DNA of 64,000 nucleotides. Source: Ruditapes philippinarum (Eukaryota). Made by a program: the position numbers. Shown piece by piece: positions 40,001-64,000 of the stretch (positions are counted from its first letter, which is position 1; each line of letters opens with the position of its first letter). The DNA lies in assembly GCF_026571515.1 (NCBI RefSeq), contig NW_026854585.1:186001-250000 (forward strand). Reading direction: 5' to 3'.

Positions 40001-43000
40001 TTGTTTTGAAGGGCAATGGATAAAAAGTTTAGCTTTTACGGAGTCTTTATAAAACTGATATCAACCTGTGGTTTTTTACATCCAAGACACATATTTTCCT
40101 TGAGGAGAGAACACGAGAGTGCACAGGAGAAAAAAAACTTATATTTCTGAGTACTGTTAGAATATACGTCAATGCTGACTCGATCTTTGCATGTTTTATA
40201 CTCCTATATACCATTCTATAGCATCGTATCTAATTCTATCTAGTCGTATCTTATCGTATTTTTTATCATACCATTCCTTTCCGTACAGTAGTAGTATTGT
40301 CCCTATCGTACCGTATCGTATCTAATTAATTTATTCCACCGTAACGTATCGTATTGCATGAAATCATCTTGATCATTATGATTTTATTTTAATTGTTTAT
40401 TAAACAAACTATTTTTGGTGTATATGCAATGCAGCATTAATCACCGAGTTATACCCATATACCAAACAAAATCGCCATTTACAATGCAAAGTGACAGCAA
40501 AAGCTGCTTTCTTTACATGGGTAAAAATAAAAATAAAAACTATCAAATCAGATATGCAAATATAAACTTGTACCGTAGAAGAGGCTATTTGCTAATGATA
40601 GTCTGCAAATGTACAATACTGTTTTCACATATCAAGATTATATGAGACAAGCTGTATGAATAAACAGCTGTAGACTTGTTTGTATCATACATTTTTGATG
40701 ACGTATTGATTGTAAAATGTACGAGTCGGTAATAAAGATACCAGTCTAGAATAATCAATGCAAATTGATACTCTGTATATTTTATTCGTCACAAGAACGC
40801 ATGATTTGTCGTTGTTTATTCATGAGTTAAGTGGTGCAAAATCAACAAATACTATAAGATCTACCTAGCTATAATAGACATTGAGCTTTGATGAAAGAAG
40901 TGCTTACGAAAACGGTAATATTCTTACAAACAGCCTGATTAACGATGATAATTAAATTATCGTTATGATAATATTATGATTTTATCAAATTTTAATAATA
41001 TTATAATATTCATTGTTATTGTCGTCATCGTCATCAAATGTGAAAGATCTCATTTTCGTTTGCGGCAATTATTATACGAACTACTATTGTCGTATCCGGT
41101 TTTTTTTCTAATACCCATGATTGAGGAGTGACAATGAAATCTGTCATAAAGTGCTTTAAATAGAATTGAACATGCTATCTATAAAAAAGAAATAATAGAT
41201 GTTTCAAAAGTGTGGGAGAAGCGTTAAATTGGAAGTGTAAGAATCCTTTTGTTAGACATCTCCATCAAATTAAGCTACTGAGTTCGTGACCTTTAAAAGA
41301 ATAATGCGAATCAACGTGTAAATAACACATATATATTTACATTCGATATTTATACTTGGTTGTTATATTCTTTATGATATAAACCGCGGCGCAAGAGTGT
41401 AATAACGTCATTTAACAAAATTACACTAGTGTAATAACACTTTGACGTTACGTCATTTGCGTTATATAATAACAATACAATAAATTTAGTATTAAATCTA
41501 CAGTCATTAAATATCCTCAATTAATCATATAAACCGCGGCGCAAGAGTGTAATAAAATCATTTAATAAAAACGATATTACACTAAAGTGTAATAACACTG
41601 GCGTGACGTCAATATCGTAAAAGCACGCTCCTGATAGCGTTACACTATAAGCGCGTCAATATAAAATGACCCTTTTTAAAAGTTTACCGTTCTTAATTTT
41701 AAACAAGCGATAAATCAAATATTATATTCATGTAGATTCAATAATAAATTTATCAAACAAGTGGAATAAAACAATATTATGCTCATAAGAGGCTCGCATA
41801 ATATGGTTTTATTCAACAAGCTCAATAAATTAAACCTGCACCCATTCAATATTCTCTATGTACATGTACATGTATTTAAAAGGAGTGTATCGATTCTCCG
41901 ACGGAGATCCAACAAATTCTAATTGATACAAATACTGTAGAATAAGTCATTCTAACAGAATCAATGTATAATACCATATCAAATTTCATATTGCATTGTC
42001 ACTTACCACTATAGAGAATTAGAAAAAAATAACGTTATTAATATTCGTTTTTACCACCTATGTTTGAGACGAAAAACGAGAGAAATTTGATCATATACAA
42101 ACTAACAAGAAAGGATAAAGTAATATGAGGATGATCATTGTTGAATTTCACACAATTGAGTATTAATCGTGCTATGTTTAAAGTTCAAACAGCGGTAAAA
42201 CACTTCATATATCTTACTTTAAGAAAATATAACCGCATGATTTCATAACAGCATGACAGGTGATGCTTTTGTCAGTGTATAGCGCCCAACCAGCAGGTGC
42301 AATTAAGCAGCCAAATCAATGTCAATTTCGGCTATTTTGTCCAGAGACTATATCATTCCAATAACAATTAGGCCATATAAGGTACAACCTGTCACCTTAT
42401 ATGGAATAGCACGAGGACAAACGTCATGAATAATTCATTTTAAAAATAGCCTTTTAATATTTTATTATTTTTGCATCCTCGACGCATAATTAAAACGCTT
42501 ATTTTGAACCTATTACCACGCAACATGCAGGTTAAATTTAGCCTTGATAGATCTAACGCATATATACAAACGACTAAACCATTCTTGTCAATTTGGAAAT
42601 ATTAGATAAGATTTCTAAAGACTTTGTAATAACTAACTTACCTTATTCTTTTGTTTTCTTCATCCTTCATTTCTTTCGCTCTTCCAATGACCTCGCGTAT
42701 TTTGGCAACTTCATCCGGTGATAAGTGACTTAGATCCGGTTCCGGTGGGTCCATGGGAGATGGTATCCGCATAGACCCTAGTGAAGATCTCCTTCCGGCA
42801 CGTGAGCCGTAAGAGTAAATAGACTGCCAGTCTGAAACCTGGCTCTCGGTATCAGACGGCAGACTCCCTTCGTTTCCCATGTTCACAAGGAAATTTAAAA
42901 TTTGAACCAGGGACCAGTCACATACATGTACACTGAATATATAAATCCAAAGGCACAAGCAAACGATAAATAAAAATGAGCTCACAAATACGTGGTAAAG

Positions 43001-61000: not shown

Positions 61001-64000
61001 AGAGTTCTGAAACTTGACCTGCTAATCTTACTTGTGACACCTCATATCTAATTTAAGTTTCAAGCAAATAACTGTCCTAGTTTAAGAATATTCAACTACA
61101 TGTTAAAATTTAAGAACATTTTCTAAGTCAACTTTTGACCTTCAAGTGTGACCTTGACCTTAAGCTGGCACAAAGGTAACATGGGTTCTGTGCATAACCT
61201 TGTTGAGGTGAACATTTGAGTAAAGTTTGAAGAAAAATCTTCAATAAGTATAGGATTTATAGAGCGGACACGACATATTGTCTATATTTGATTGTATGAA
61301 AATTTAAAGACTTAAAAAAGAGACATAACTTTGTCAAAATGCAATACAGAGTTATGAAACTTGACCTGCATATCTTAACTGTGACACTTCATATATATTT
61401 CAAGTTTCAAGCAAATACCTTTTCTAGTTTCAGAAATATATAAATACATGTTAAAATTTAAAAATATTTTCTAAGTCATTTTTTGACCTTCAAGTTTGAC
61501 CTTAAGCCGGCAAAAGGGTAACATGGGTTCTGCACATAACCTTGTTGAGGTGAACAGAGTGTACAGAGCAGACACGACATACTGTCTAATATTTGATTGT
61601 TTGATATTTGACCTTCATTGTGACCTTGAGCTGACACATGGGCAACATGGGTTCTGCATATCCCCTTGTTGAGGTGAACATTTGAGCCAAGTTTAAAGAA
61701 AATCCTTCAATTGGTATAGGATTTATACAGCGGACACGATAATAATGACGGATCAACCGACCAACGCGACAAAGCAAAACCATTATGGCCACCCCCCCCC
61801 CACCCATTTTGTGGTGGGGTATAAAAAGTAAACTAAAAATATTTAAAAACAATGCCTATTCTTCTTAACAGTCAAAACGAACTGACCCAATTGAAAGATT
61901 TTAACAATATACCAGTAGTATACAAAGTATTTACTCAAATATGTTGTTTTTTTCAAACACAAATATGTACTAATTCTGCAACTCCATTTTATGATTTTTA
62001 TTCAGGAAAGTCAATGCCAGAAGTCAACTTAATTGTTTGATAAAAAAAGTAACTTACAACATCAGACTTGGAGGAATATTTTCCTTTTTCTAGACACTCC
62101 AGTGCCATCCATTTGACTGGCAACATTGTTTTCTTGCTCTCAGATGCATAGTAATCTTTCTCGTAAATGTCACGAGAAAGTCCAAAGTCGGCTACCTTCA
62201 CTCTAAAATCATTGTCTAACCTGAAACGCGAGTATAATACAATGTTATTTCTACTGAACACACCTGTAAACAGCATTTAAATTTACTGTAATATGTATTA
62301 CCTTATAGTACTGCACATTTGTAACAACAATTTTCATTAGATGATCATGTTGTTTATATCAATCAGACTTAATAGATTATTAAGTCTCAAATAATAACTC
62401 AATTCTGAGGCTTCTGGGTTAACAAAGAAGAAAGTTCAGTTGAGAATACCGTATAAGTACTTATTTCTGCGGGAACTTTATTTCTGCTATTTCTGCGGTT
62501 TATAACGACACCGCAGATTTAAAAATCGCAGAAAATTAAGCCTTTCGCTATGTCTACATGTCTGTAGGAATATGTCAACTACCTGTATTGTATAATTACA
62601 TTACCATGTACCGTTATCAGCTTTTGTAGATGGGAATAATTTTCTTTATGTACCCGTCATGAATGAAATATTAGAAAAAAAAGTTACTTTACTTAAGAAA
62701 TAATATATCCCAAACTGTGATTTTATCGCTCAATAACATCACTGTTTGGAGTTCGGATGCGAGGAATTATATCACGAGGGCGTAGCCCGAGTGATATAAT
62801 GATGCGCATCCGAACGACAAACAGTGATGTTATCCAGCGATAAAATCACCGATTTGGATATATTATTTCGATTCTAACACGACTTAAACAAATAAATGCT
62901 GCCGTTCCTGCTATTAAGCAAAATTACGCCTGATTTGTTTCCGTACTTATTGTCAGCGCGTCGGATTTTATAGTGGTTACGTCACATGTATAATGATTAC
63001 GTCACATGTCTAAATATAGAACGTCAAACAGTGACTCTATTGCATAATAACACACACTTTCGGTTCTTCTATGTTCAATAGGGAAAAATGCGGGTCGTGT
63101 TAGAATTGTTCTTTTTGTTTAAAAAAATGTCATGTTTGTATGAGTTTCGCTCGCCCTAAGCTTGATTTATTTTAAAAATAAAACTATTATAGTTTGACGG
63201 GTGCAATAAACATACCCTTTTGTATTTGTACAATATATTGTGTCTACGTGTGATATTACCATTGTTTATTTTTCACACTTTTGACATATTTATACACATG
63301 CAGTATTACAATTAACTGTTGTCATTGCACGTTGTTGATTTTTGTTTATTAACGTTTTGTTTATTGCGTTCATTGAGCGCCGCCTTACCTTGTTGATCTC
63401 GTTTATCATATTTTATATACCGATACATGGTGATCACGATGAACACACATTATAAGTCGTCTGCATGTTTACCGGAAGTAATGCACATGTTACATCAACA
63501 TATCTTGAAATGTTGTCTGTTTGTATCGGCTAATTTTGTAAAAATATCTAAGTTGAAACGCAAAGATAAAAAACATCAATGCGAGAATGATGACACCGCA
63601 GAAATAAAATACGCAGAAATTTGAAACCCCTTATTTTAACCAAAATCGCAGAATTTTAAGCCCGCAGAAATAAGTACTTATACGGTATTCAGTTTTAGAA
63701 ACAACATAAAAATAACAACACTTACATGCAGTTTCTACAAGCTAAGTCTCTATGTACAAATTTTAGTTCAGAAAGATAGGCCATTCCCTCAGCAATATCT
63801 ATACCAAATGTGATCAGATCCTTTATAGTAGGTGCCTGAAAAATTGCACATCAAACATGTACATATATATACAGTATAACCTCTGCAAATGGCCCATTGT
63901 AGACTGATAACCTCTTTATAATAATGGACTCAAATCTTCCTAGACTTAAAATTGACACTGAATTTAATCTCTATTTAACAACATCTGTCATCAACAACCA

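What the first reader, a model, noticed from the sequence alone, without database searches (positions are those of the whole stretch)
42642..63835. Piccolo/Bassoon-like gene directly downstream of a MET/RON-like kinase: possible ancient bilaterian linkage
Seen: the two genes are adjacent on the same strand, ~15 kb apart, with no coding gene between them. Established: human BSN lies at 3p21 close to MST1 and MST1R (RON), and its paralog PCLO lies on 7q with HGF and MET. Inference: the active-zone scaffold/MET-family linkage may predate the protostome-deuterostome split, with this genome retaining a tight ancestral arrangement.
Basis: partly seen in the sequence, partly recalled or inferred. Interest (0 to 1): 0.65.

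Follow-up and report, generated by a model that had tools for sequence, protein, structure and literature searches.

The report
Clam MET-like kinase beside Piccolo-like gene
In this bivalve genome the tail end of a MET/RON-type receptor kinase gene sits about 14 kb upstream of the first exon of a Piccolo-type synapse scaffold gene, echoing a human neighbourhood, but it is not shown that the tight pairing is ancient.

Summary
Both genes lie on the minus strand.

**Kinase gene.** Exons at 63835-63726, 62220-62058, 59989-59853 and 59209-59040/58993 encode the C-terminal two thirds of a tyrosine-kinase domain. In separate exon-by-exon searches, each exon has MET or RON as its best real solved relative. 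The nearest full-length protein is Mercenaria mercenaria "HGF receptor-like". Named orthologues carry Sema-PSI-TIG-kinase.

**Second gene.** Only one coding exon is in the window (42880-42642). It has an MGNEGS start that fits the myristoylation pattern, then a Rab-binding-type helix. It matches the N-termini of 2,244-3,446-residue proteins of molluscs, a brachiopod, a hemichordate and starfish. Those proteins carry one Piccolo/FYVE-type zinc finger, a PDZ domain and C2 domain(s). Their PDZ and C2 domains score best against vertebrate Piccolo.

**Gap between them.** It is 14.2 kb (16.1 kb from the read-through stop), made of satellites, with no recognisable coding ORF.

**Ancient linkage: only partly supported.** In the 2 of 2 other species where both genes were listed (Mytilus trossulus, Asterias rubens), they lie on contigs of identical length, so on the same chromosome. 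Adjacency elsewhere could not be tested. The Piccolo-versus-Fife assignment rests on indirect evidence.

Interest is modest.

The parts
63726..63835 (-). Kinase exon K1 (110 nt). Encodes the catalytic-loop region (HRDLACRN). The upstream exons lie beyond the window end.
   Evidence: AG acceptor and GT donor read. Pfam PK_Tyr_Ser-Thr positions 99-134, 44.8 bits. Best solved relatives RON 49.0 and MET 46.4 bits, against insulin receptor 38.8.
62058..62220 (-). Kinase exon K2 (163 nt). Holds the DFG motif, an activation loop with paired tyrosines (DYY), and KWMALE.
   Evidence: Splice sites read. Pfam 64.2 bits. MET 57.5, RON 49.8, insulin receptor 49.7 bits. 100% identical to Mercenaria mercenaria HGF receptor-like P0045.
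59853..59989 (-). Kinase exon K3 (137 nt).
   Evidence: Splice sites read. Pfam 52.6 bits. MET 63.8 and RON 63.2 bits, against AXL 49.7, MER 49.1 and RYK 45.6. The top row of that search, an EGFR tandem construct, scores by two 30-bit copies.
58993..59209 (-). Kinase exon K4: end of the kinase domain and a tail with YVNM. It has an internal donor (ACAG|GTAC) after 59040. Read through, it stops at TGA 58995-58993.
   Evidence: Sequence. MET 27.6 bits against FGFR3 25.3, with the tail TYVNME aligned to MET TYVNVK. P0045 follows the internal donor.
57881..58060 (-). Inferred kinase tail exon K5 (YHYTDELM..., Ser/Pro/Thr-rich). Its 3' part overlaps a 30-nt tandem repeat.
   Evidence: tblastn of the P0045 tail: 56% identity, E 2e-13. 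AG/GT read. Single-exon translation. Tandem repeat 57666-57969.
57127..57311 (-). Inferred last kinase exon K6, ending ...ESVA and stop TAG 57129-57127. The boundaries are tentative and the DNA is low-complexity.
   Evidence: tblastn of the P0045 tail: E 6e-4, 31% identity, same C-terminal ESVA. Frame-compatible AG at 57313-57312. Translation.
42881..57126 (.). Intergenic stretch of 14.2 kb with satellite arrays: 46077-47220 (164-nt unit), 48798-49546 (44-nt unit, 17 copies), 51514-52595 (46/75/121-nt units), 53263-53966 (137-nt unit).
   Evidence: Tandem Repeats Finder. No credible Pfam match for ORFs here. No tRNA or Rfam match.
42642..42880 (-). First coding exon of the Piccolo-family gene (79 codons plus 2 nt). 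Holds the MGNEGS start, a Ser-rich linker, and PEPDLSHLSPDE followed by a helix that opens the Rab-binding/FYVE_2 module.
   Evidence: ATG and donor read. Homologues. Aligned to the N-termini of Pinctada (58% identity, E 9e-27), Mytilus, Haliotis, Lingula, Ptychodera, Patiria and Asterias proteins. FYVE_2 model positions 1-29 fall on residues 51-79, but only at E 0.15.
1..42641 (-). Intron 1 of the Piccolo-family gene, running off the window (longer than 42.6 kb). Contains a diverged tandem segmental duplication.
   Evidence: No match to four full-length relatives beyond exon 1. No Pfam-positive ORF. Duplication 1208-8796 against 12941-20053 at 79-85% identity.

Best explanation
The window covers the 3' part of a bivalve MET/RON-family receptor tyrosine kinase gene. 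On the same strand, 14 kb downstream, lies the promoter-proximal first coding exon of the animal's Piccolo-family active-zone scaffold gene.

The kinase. It keeps the paired activation-loop tyrosines and one C-terminal YVNM docking tyrosine. It probably signals as MET does, by trans-phosphorylation and recruitment of SH2 adaptors (inferred).

The scaffold exon. It encodes a glycine-2 start that is probably myristoylated, as shown for rat Bassoon. It also encodes the first helix of the Rab-binding/zinc-finger module. The zinc finger, PDZ and Ca2+-type C2 domain(s) lie beyond a first intron of more than 42.6 kb, outside the window (inferred from relatives).

The pairing. The two genes are separate transcription units with no evident functional tie. 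It most likely reflects an old linkage on one ancestral bilaterian chromosome, the same linkage seen as BSN-MST1-MST1R and PCLO-HGF...MET in human. It is not established whether the 14-kb adjacency is itself ancestral or a local accident in heterodont clams.
For: Kinase:
- All four exons, searched one by one, have MET or RON as best real solved relative.
- The margins are 8-10 bits (K1), about 8 bits (K2, for MET only; RON ties with insulin receptor), about 14 bits over TAM and 18 over RYK (K3), and about 2 bits (K4).
- The nearest full-length protein, P0045 (Mercenaria HGF receptor-like), matches K1 and K2 at 100%, K3 at 90% and K4 at 87.5%.
- P0045 has PSI, TIG repeats and a kinase domain, plus a weak Sema match (16.9 bits, E 0.0065).
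- P0045 is collinear over residues 24-1356 with Mytilus coruscus MET, and over 34-1320 with the Asterias protein. Both of these pass the Sema cut-off.
- 12 of the 71 hits carry a precomputed Sema call.

Scaffold:
- Exon 1 aligns from its first residue to the N-termini of 7 full-length proteins.
- Those proteins have FYVE_2, zf-piccolo, PDZ and C2. zf-piccolo is found in 6 of 7 at E<=1e-3 and in 4 of 7 at or above the 30-bit cut-off.
- RIM2a_ZnF hits only the fish RIM2 in the same scan.
- Against solved structures, Piccolo C2A scores 157.8, 146.9 and 144.2 bits, while RIM2 C2A scores 107.2, 99.3 and 82.4.
- In the same searches the best PDZ match is the Piccolo PDZ (1ujd) at about 80 bits.
- All 5 canonical C2 aspartate positions are kept in 7 of 7 relatives. 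Fish RIM2 C2A keeps 1 of 5.
- Window exon 1 and all 7 relatives (8 of 8) start with a sequence that fits the myristoylation pattern (the pattern is recalled).
- Bassoon's G2 site is reported functional (passages of PMC8632625).

Linkage:
- Both genes lie on the same-length contig in Mytilus trossulus and in Asterias rubens, 2 of 2 species.
- The human arrangement is confirmed in passages of PMC10797721 and PMC8263547.
Against: - Only 79 codons of the scaffold gene and about 160 kinase-domain residues plus the C-terminal tail are in the window. Every statement on architecture is borrowed from relatives in other species.
- No vertebrate Bassoon or Piccolo N-terminus reached E<=1e-3 with exon 1. 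In the 1,234-3,927-residue range the only vertebrate hit to the Lingula N-terminus was a fish RIM2. Piccolo is too long for that range and Bassoon is at its edge.
- The zf-piccolo scores are borderline (25-37 bits), and the relatives have one finger, not two.
- Orvis et al. (PMC9282427, section 12) report both Piccolo and Fife-like genes in molluscs and state that echinoderms lack Piccolo. That sits awkwardly with my starfish relatives. I could not place this gene in their tree.
- Same-chromosome location in two species says nothing on adjacency.
- By my recollection, human BSN/MST1R and PCLO/MET are not head-to-tail as here, and a dozen or so genes separate BSN from MST1R.
Confidence: 0.8

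Rival explanations
1. Ancestral microsynteny. MET-type kinase and Piccolo were already close neighbours in the last common bilaterian ancestor. They have stayed close because regulatory elements of one gene lie in or beside the other, as in a genomic regulatory block. The clam keeps the tight form and human keeps a loosened one.
For: - 14-kb adjacency here.
- Human BSN and MST1R share the band 3p21.31 (PMC10797721 passage).
- Same chromosome in a mussel and a starfish.
- The scaffold gene has a very large first intron of more than 42.6 kb, the kind of gene that often hosts long-range enhancers (inference).
Against: - No second genome with measured distance.
- No conserved non-coding element was tested.
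- The intergenic DNA is mostly satellite.
- Orientation differs from human (recalled).
- PCLO and MET are about 34 Mb apart in human (recalled).
- The pair was noticed post hoc.
Confidence: 0.3
2. Coincidental local adjacency. The two genes belong to the same ancestral linkage group, but gene order within it has been scrambled. Their being neighbours in this clam lineage is a recent accident without meaning.
For: - Only chromosome-level co-location is shown elsewhere.
- Satellite arrays fill the gap, and a young segmental duplication (79-85% identity) lies in intron 1. Both show a fluid region.
- Established knowledge: gene order within conserved linkage groups is largely randomised between phyla.
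Against: If order were random on a chromosome of about a thousand genes, immediate adjacency would be a few-per-thousand event. The human BSN-MST1R closeness would be a second coincidence.
Confidence: 0.45
3. The second gene is not the orthologue of vertebrate PCLO/BSN. It is another RIM-superfamily paralogue (spiralian Fife-like, or the 'Chalumeau' type), so the comparison with human BSN/PCLO neighbourhoods is between paralogues.
For: - Molluscs have RIM, Piccolo and Fife-like genes (PMC9282427, section 12).
- The relatives have a single zinc finger with borderline zf-piccolo scores.
- Their lengths of 2,244-3,446 residues are shorter than what I recall for vertebrate Bassoon (about 3,900) and Piccolo (about 5,000).
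- The same paper says echinoderms lack Piccolo, yet my family includes starfish proteins.
Against: - Piccolo C2A leads RIM2 C2A by about 47-62 bits, and the Piccolo PDZ is the best PDZ match.
- All five Ca2+-site aspartates are kept in 7 of 7 relatives, whereas Drosophila Fife C2 domains are described as noncanonical (PMC5223599 passage).
- The MGNE start is shared with Bassoon (G2 myristoylation from PMC8632625; the residue string is recalled).
- UniRef labels the Pinctada member 'Protein piccolo'.
Confidence: 0.15
4. Exon 1 is a relic or belongs to a short unrelated transcript in this genome, and no full Piccolo-type gene follows it.
For: No downstream exon is visible in 42.6 kb.
Against: - The exon is intact, with a consensus donor.
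- It is under clear constraint compared with its upstream flank: 80/80 against 53/61 identity with the closest relative, and 76/80 against 14/61 with P0003.
- It is the N-terminus of complete gene models in seven other species.
Confidence: 0.05

Closest known systems
MET / MST1R (RON) receptor tyrosine kinases (Met subfamily)
   Same: - The kinase exons score best against MET or RON.
- Paired activation-loop tyrosines, the KWMALE motif and a YVN docking tyrosine aligned to MET's TYVNV.
- Orthologues carry Sema-PSI-TIG-kinase.
   Different: - Only one docking tyrosine, in a YVNM context. MET's first one (YVHV) has no tyrosine opposite it in the alignment.
- A long Ser/Pro/Thr-rich extra tail encoded by two further exons.
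- The Sema domain of the nearest relative is weak in Pfam (16.9 bits).
- The ligand is unknown.
Vertebrate Piccolo (PCLO/Aczonin) and Bassoon (BSN)
   Same: - A glycine-2 start fitting the myristoylation pattern.
- In relatives, a zf-piccolo-type finger, a PDZ domain and a Ca2+-type C2A that are the best matches to Piccolo's solved domains.
- A very long, low-complexity middle region.
   Different: - One zinc finger instead of two.
- Spiralian relatives have one C2 domain; ambulacrarian relatives have two.
- Roughly half the length or less.
- Piccolo-Bassoon homology and coiled-coil regions were not examined.
- None of this is visible in the window beyond exon 1.
Drosophila Fife, the spiralian Fife-like genes, and C. 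elegans Clarinet
   Same: Zinc finger, PDZ and C2 architecture, and an active-zone scaffold role (passages of PMC5223599, PMC5728718 and PMC9282427).
   Different: - Fife C2 domains are described as noncanonical, whereas the relatives here keep all five aspartates.
- Fife is described as smaller.
- No Fife sequence was available for a direct comparison.
RIM1/RIM2 (UNC-10)
   Same: A Rab-binding helix followed by a zinc finger, PDZ and C2. Fish RIM2 was the weakest of the 8 hits to the Lingula N-terminus (E 5e-16).
   Different: - RIM2a_ZnF hits RIM2 (100.7 bits) but none of the 7 relatives.
- RIM2 lacks the MGN start and aligns only to exon-1 residues 45-79 (E 0.002).
- RIM2 C2A lacks 4 of the 5 aspartates.
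Human 3p21.31 / 7q21-q31 paralogous neighbourhoods (BSN-MST1-MST1R; PCLO-HGF...MET)
   Same: A Piccolo-family gene and a Met-family kinase on one chromosome (PMC10797721 and PMC8263547 passages).
   Different: Human distances are about 0.2 Mb and about 34 Mb, with intervening genes and different relative orientation (recalled). The clam genes are 14 kb apart, head to tail. No ligand gene (HGF/MST1 type) is seen in the window.

Membership tests
Met subfamily of receptor tyrosine kinases (MET/MST1R) | Tyrosine-kinase domain closest to MET/MST1R rather than TAM, RYK, insulin receptor or others | tested here: met
   Exon-by-exon phmmer against solved structures. MET or RON was the top real hit in 4 of 4 exons. 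The K2 and K4 margins are small.
Met subfamily of receptor tyrosine kinases (MET/MST1R) | Extracellular Sema domain, PSI and IPT/TIG repeats | not testable with these tools
   These parts lie outside the window. In relatives, P0045 has PSI, TIG repeats and a weak Sema match. Mytilus coruscus MET and the Asterias protein have Sema, PSI and TIG above cut-off.
Met subfamily of receptor tyrosine kinases (MET/MST1R) | Paired activation-loop tyrosines and a C-terminal multi-substrate docking site (features recalled) | tested here: met
   DYY is aligned to MET EYY. TYVNME is aligned to TYVNVK. Only one of MET's two docking tyrosines is present.
Piccolo/Bassoon family | N-terminal glycine-2 myristoylation consensus | tested here: met
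   MGNEGS at 42880. The same start type occurs in 7 of 7 full-length relatives and in 38 of 40 homologues scanned. The pattern itself is recalled. Modification was not tested.
Piccolo/Bassoon family | Two zf-piccolo zinc fingers | tested here: not met
   Not in the window. Relatives have one finger: zf-piccolo 25-37 bits in 6 of 7, at or above cut-off in 4 of 7, and none in Pinctada.
Piccolo/Bassoon family | PDZ and C2A domains of Piccolo type | tested here: met
   Tested in relatives only. Piccolo C2A (1rh8) scores 144-158 bits against RIM2 C2A at 82-107. The Piccolo PDZ (1ujd) scores about 80 bits. The five aspartates are kept in 7 of 7.
Piccolo/Bassoon family | Piccolo-Bassoon homology regions and coiled coils; placement in the Piccolo clade of a RIM-superfamily tree | not tested
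   No vertebrate Piccolo/Bassoon, Aplysia Piccolo or Fife sequences could be fetched.
Slp/MyRIP/rabphilin Rab effectors | Rab-binding domain without PDZ; tandem C2 or myosin-binding region | tested here: not met
   All 7 full-length relatives of exon 1 carry a PDZ domain. Rabphilin and Slp4 C2 domains score far below Piccolo C2A.
Conserved bilaterian microsyntenic pair | Adjacency or near-adjacency of the orthologues in several phyla | not testable with these tools
   No eukaryotic genome collection was open.

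The most novel reading that the evidence does not exclude
A Met-type kinase gene and the Piccolo gene were immediate neighbours in the last common ancestor of protostomes and deuterostomes, and this clam still shows that state. After the two vertebrate genome doublings the block became BSN-MST1-MST1R and PCLO-HGF...MET. That would mean the plasminogen-derived ligand genes HGF and MST1 arose inside, or were captured into, the receptor-Piccolo block. It would be a rare case of a ligand gene born beside its receptor, within a neighbourhood more than 550 million years old.
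Probability: 0.2. Interest if true: 0.55.

Novelty: new member of a known kind. Interest (0 to 1): 0.3.

Why it matters
If the pairing proves old, it would add one well-dated microsyntenic pair linking a growth-factor receptor and a synaptic scaffold. It would also help reconstruct the pre-duplication form of the human 3p21/7q paralogous regions, including where the HGF and MST1 ligand genes arose.

There are two more immediate uses:
- The exon gives a clean, conserved N-terminal signature for finding invertebrate Piccolo-type genes: an MGN start, then PEPDLSHL and a helix.
- Several mollusc gene models (Mytilus, Pinctada, Haliotis) appear to start too far upstream, in a T-rich open frame.

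Otherwise both genes are ordinary orthologues of annotated families.

Tried and rejected
**Further exons of the second gene in the window: none found.**
- Pfam scan of 296 minus-strand ORFs of at least 40 aa and 133 plus-strand ORFs of at least 52 aa.
- tblastn with Lingula, Haliotis, Pinctada and Mytilus full-length proteins.
- A weak Zn_ribbon_NOB1 hit at 28802-28921 (18.5 bits) has no cysteine pattern in its translation and was dropped.

**Plus-strand Pfam hits on 48674-49718** (Phage_MS2_lysis and others). No stretch passes on its own. They come from translating the 44-nt satellite and were rejected.

**Slp/MyRIP/rabphilin reading of exon 1.** Rejected because of the PDZ domain and Piccolo-type C2A in all full-length relatives.

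**RIM reading.** Rejected on RIM2a_ZnF, the start motif and the C2 aspartates.

**ESM Atlas.**
- Exon 1 gave only weak leads, scores 0.81-0.84, to RIM2 and RabBD fragments. I use them as no more than consistent with a Rab-binding-type helix.

**Other attempts that led nowhere.**
- The listing of cluster members, tried to get accession numbers as a proxy for gene order, was switched off.
- Bruckner 2012 (PMC3524967) is not held.
- Three literature searches for a described MET/MST1R-PCLO/BSN linkage found nothing on it.
- The teleost Piccolo paper mentions only SEMA3, TSPAN and GRM3 neighbours.
- Two bacterial repeat proteins, P0042 and P0043, among the 37 hits are chance matches.

**Not done.**
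Every search with window sequence used a single exon.
- No structure prediction or complex prediction was run, because neither would bear on the linkage question.

Full report
**What is in the window.** The sequence is AT-rich (about 25-37% G+C in 2-kb steps) and has no N. All coding signal relevant to the finding is on the minus strand. I listed every stop-to-stop ORF and scanned each on its own against Pfam: 296 minus-strand ORFs of at least 40 aa and 133 plus-strand ORFs of at least 52 aa. I built no spliced protein at any point. Nothing in the window looked human.

**The kinase gene.**

Four of the 296 minus-strand ORFs hit PK_Tyr_Ser-Thr, in collinear order covering model positions 99-257.

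Reading the DNA gives AG/GT-bounded exons:
- K1 63835-63726 (110 nt)
- K2 62220-62058 (163 nt)
- K3 59989-59853 (137 nt)
- K4 from 59209

The N-terminal third of the kinase domain and the whole extracellular part lie beyond position 64000.

Each exon was searched separately against solved structures, with these scores in bits:

| Exon | MET | RON | Best other family |
|---|---|---|---|
| K1 | 46.4 | 49.0 | insulin receptor 38.8 |
| K2 | 57.5 | 49.8 | insulin receptor 49.7 |
| K3 | 63.8 | 63.2 | AXL 49.7, MER 49.1, RYK 45.6 |
| K4 | 27.6 | not among the 60 rows shown | FGFR3 25.3 |

In the K3 search the nominal top row is an EGFR tandem construct that scores by two 30-bit copies. In the K4 search the nominal top row is a designed repeat protein with no stretch that passes on its own.

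The alignments show the paired activation-loop tyrosines (DYY opposite MET EYY) and KWMALE. They also show a tail TYVNME opposite MET's TYVNVK. MET's other docking tyrosine has no counterpart.

**Full-length relatives of the kinase.**
- K2 finds 71 proteins at E<=1e-3 among 96 candidates.
- The best is Mercenaria mercenaria 'hepatocyte growth factor receptor-like isoform X2' (P0045, 1,458 aa).
- P0045 is 100% identical in K1 and K2, 90% in K3 and 87.5% in K4. The window therefore comes from a related heterodont clam, not from that record.
- P0045 has PSI, TIG repeats, a kinase domain and a sub-threshold Sema match (16.9 bits, E 0.0065) at the expected place.
- P0045 is collinear from residue 24 to 1356 with Mytilus coruscus 'MET' (43.6% identity) and from 34 to 1320 with the Asterias rubens protein (31%). 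Both of those pass the Sema, PSI and TIG cut-offs.
- 12 of the 71 hits carry a precomputed Sema call.
- Sema-PSI-TIG joined to a kinase is, to my knowledge, exclusive to the Met subfamily.
- Brunet et al. group Met with Ryk and Tam and list Met/Mst1r as its two vertebrate members (passages of PMC4898815).

Dreissena has a second, more distant copy on another chromosome-sized contig (P0101, 65% identity in K2), so paralogues exist.

P0045 leaves K4 at an internal donor (ACAG|GTAC after 59040) and continues. tblastn of its tail matches 58064-57882 (56% identity, E 2e-13) and 57306-57130 (31%, E 6e-4, same ...ESVA end). With frame-compatible splice sites and single-exon translations, I infer K5 at 58060-57881 and K6 at 57311-57127. 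K6 is tentative. The 3' part of K5 lies in a 30-nt tandem repeat that adds 13 residues relative to Mercenaria. Read through instead, K4 stops at 58995-58993.

**The second gene.**

The only coding piece is one exon:
- ATG at 42880 in a good context (A at -3, G at +4)
- 79 codons plus 2 nt
- donor AAG|GTAAGT after 42642

It has no Pfam match at E<=0.01. At a relaxed threshold, FYVE_2 model positions 1-29 fall on residues 51-79, exactly at the exon end, but only at E 0.15.

The exon is clearly real:
- 8 hits among 48 candidates in the word-indexed search.
- 37 hits at E<=1e-3 in the exhaustive search of 1.84 billion representatives, 25 of them at E<=1e-10. Two of the 37 are bacterial repeat proteins and are chance matches.

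Most hits are bare ORFs that end where the exon ends.

Conservation switches on at the MGN start. Identity to the window is 53/61 upstream against 80/80 within the exon for the closest relative. It is 14/61 against 76/80 for P0003, and 13/61 against 65/80 for P0006. That script examined 40 homologues, and 38 carry an MGN..S start. P0008 was left out by my range, but it shows the motif.

**What the exon belongs to.**

One hit, P0039 (2,244 aa), is a full gene model that begins with this exon. It is Lingula anatina LOC106175070.

Its first 200 residues retrieve 8 proteins among 1,422 candidates of 1,234-3,927 residues:
- itself
- Haliotis cracherodii
- Pinctada imbricata (UniRef name 'Protein piccolo')
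- Mytilus trossulus
- Ptychodera flava
- Patiria miniata
- Asterias rubens
- last, a catfish RIM2

Window exon 1 aligns from its first residue to the N-terminal MGN start of all seven non-RIM proteins. In the Haliotis, Pinctada and Mytilus models that start lies 43-74 residues inside the annotated protein. Identity is 58% to Pinctada (E 9e-27), 57% to Mytilus, 54% to Haliotis, 47% to Lingula, 36% to Ptychodera and 34% to Patiria. For Asterias only the last 38 residues align. RIM2 aligns only to residues 45-79 (E 0.002).

All seven carry FYVE_2, PDZ and C2:
- zf-piccolo appears in 6 of 7 at E<=1e-3 and reaches its 30-bit cut-off in 4 of 7. It is absent in Pinctada.
- The three ambulacrarian proteins have two C2 stretches.
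- RIM2a_ZnF hits only the fish RIM2.

Against solved structures:

| Relative | Piccolo C2A (1rh8) | RIM2 C2A (1v27) | Piccolo PDZ (1ujd) |
|---|---|---|---|
| Pinctada | 157.8 | 107.2 | 81.9 |
| Mytilus | 146.9 | 99.3 | 80.0 |
| Asterias | 144.2 | 82.4 | 79.9 |

The best PDZ match in each case is 1ujd, 'KIAA0559', which I recall to be Piccolo.

The five aspartate positions that I recall as the Ca2+ site of C2 domains are kept in 7 of 7 relatives. Fish RIM2 C2A keeps 1 of 5. Rat Piccolo C2A shows the same residues in the alignment.

The second refutation test, Slp/MyRIP, therefore also fails.

**Piccolo or Fife?** Orvis et al. (PMC9282427; abstract and section 12 read) report that molluscs have a RIM, a Piccolo and a Fife-like gene. 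They also report that Piccolo and Fife both predate the protostome-deuterostome split, and that echinoderms lack Piccolo but have a 'Chalumeau'. I could not fetch their sequences and their supplements are closed, so I cannot place this gene in their tree.

Evidence favouring Piccolo:
- the large margin of Piccolo's C2A and PDZ over RIM's
- the canonical C2, whereas Drosophila Fife C2 domains are called noncanonical (passage of PMC5223599)
- the glycine-2 start, which Bassoon shares and uses (passages of PMC8632625 citing Dresbach 2003)

That vertebrate Bassoon and Piccolo also begin MGNEAS and carry a DLSQLSEEE-type helix is my recollection, and I did not test it.

Evidence against:
- a single, borderline zinc finger
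- no vertebrate Bassoon or Piccolo hit with exon 1
- the starfish members, which by that paper should not be Piccolo

I put the paralogue reading at 0.15.

**The gap.** Between the kinase stop (57127, or 58993 for the read-through form) and the ATG at 42880 lie 14.2 or 16.1 kb. This stretch holds satellite arrays with units of 164, 44, 46/75/121 and 137 nt. It has no credible Pfam match, no tRNA and no Rfam family. The rest of the scaffold gene is outside the window. Its first intron exceeds 42.6 kb and holds a diverged tandem duplication.

**Is the linkage old?**

The human facts hold:
- APEH/BSN/MST1/RNF123 and CAMKV/TRAIP/CDHR4/MST1R/UBA7 are both loci of 3p21.31 (table passage of PMC10797721).
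- HGF, CACNA2D1 and PCLO lie within chr7:80.2-83.4 Mb (PMC8263547).
- MET at 7q31 is textbook knowledge.

No eukaryotic genome collection was open to me, so adjacency elsewhere could not be measured. The one usable clue is the contig length listed with each protein. In Mytilus trossulus the HGF receptor-like protein (P0067) and the Piccolo-type protein (P0118) both sit on a 113,486,924-bp contig. In Asterias rubens, P0091 and P0121 both sit on a 25,660,236-bp contig.

These are the only two species for which both genes appeared, so the count is 2 of 2. If placement were independent, each coincidence would have a chance of roughly 5-10% (chromosome numbers recalled). This supports linkage on one old chromosome in a second bivalve order and in a deuterostome. 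It does not show proximity.

Three literature searches found no description of this linkage.

**Verdict.** The evolutionary inference is supported at chromosome scale only. Tight ancestral adjacency remains a reasonable but untested idea (about 0.2-0.3). Both genes are ordinary orthologues of annotated families, and the finding is a lead for a quick comparative check rather than a discovery.

Noticed in passing
window 1208-8796 and 12941-20053: A tandem segmental duplication inside intron 1 of the scaffold gene. Six collinear blastn blocks at 79-85% identity, offset about 11.5 kb.
   Followed up: partly
window 46077-47220, 48798-49546, 51514-52595, 53263-53966: Four blocks of satellite arrays fill much of the intergenic gap. 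Units are 164 nt x 6.9, 44 nt x 17 at 96% matches, nested 46/75/121 nt, and 137 nt x 4.6. Translating the 44-nt array gives long open frames that draw spurious Pfam hits.
   Followed up: partly
window 57666-57969 (minus-strand exon K5 58060-57881): A 30-nt tandem repeat overlaps the coding tail of the kinase and adds 13 residues (a repeated ...IP.QGASG... unit) relative to the Mercenaria protein. The antisense strand also has a 101-codon open frame (57748-58050) that is probably meaningless.
   Followed up: partly
window 58993-59040: Exon K4 can either splice at an internal donor to a long Ser/Pro/Thr-rich tail or read through to a stop 15 codons later. This suggests two C-terminal isoforms of the kinase that share the YVNM site.
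   Followed up: no
window 42881-43063; P0116, P0117, P0118: The frame upstream of the MGN start stays open for 61 codons in T-rich DNA. The Mytilus, Pinctada and Haliotis gene models start 43-74 residues upstream of MGN in unconserved hydrophobic sequence. Their annotated N-termini are probably too long, which would hide the myristoylation site.
   Followed up: partly
window 6630-6851 and 45365-45517 (minus strand); also 39163-39372 and 54204-54443: G+C-rich islands (up to 53%) whose translations share short strings (for example ...IQLAY.TSVVLLR...MHGR.PE). They are probably copies of an interspersed repeat. None has a Pfam match.
   Followed up: no
window 57300-57700: Runs of homopolymers and low-complexity sequence around the inferred last kinase exon. 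The exon boundary there, and possibly the base calls, should be treated with care.
   Followed up: no
P0119, P0120, P0121 (Ptychodera, Patiria, Asterias): [quoted passage not shown] Their C2A and PDZ match Piccolo best. A published survey (PMC9282427) states that echinoderms lack Piccolo, so these may be its 'Chalumeau' or an overlooked Piccolo orthologue.
   Followed up: partly
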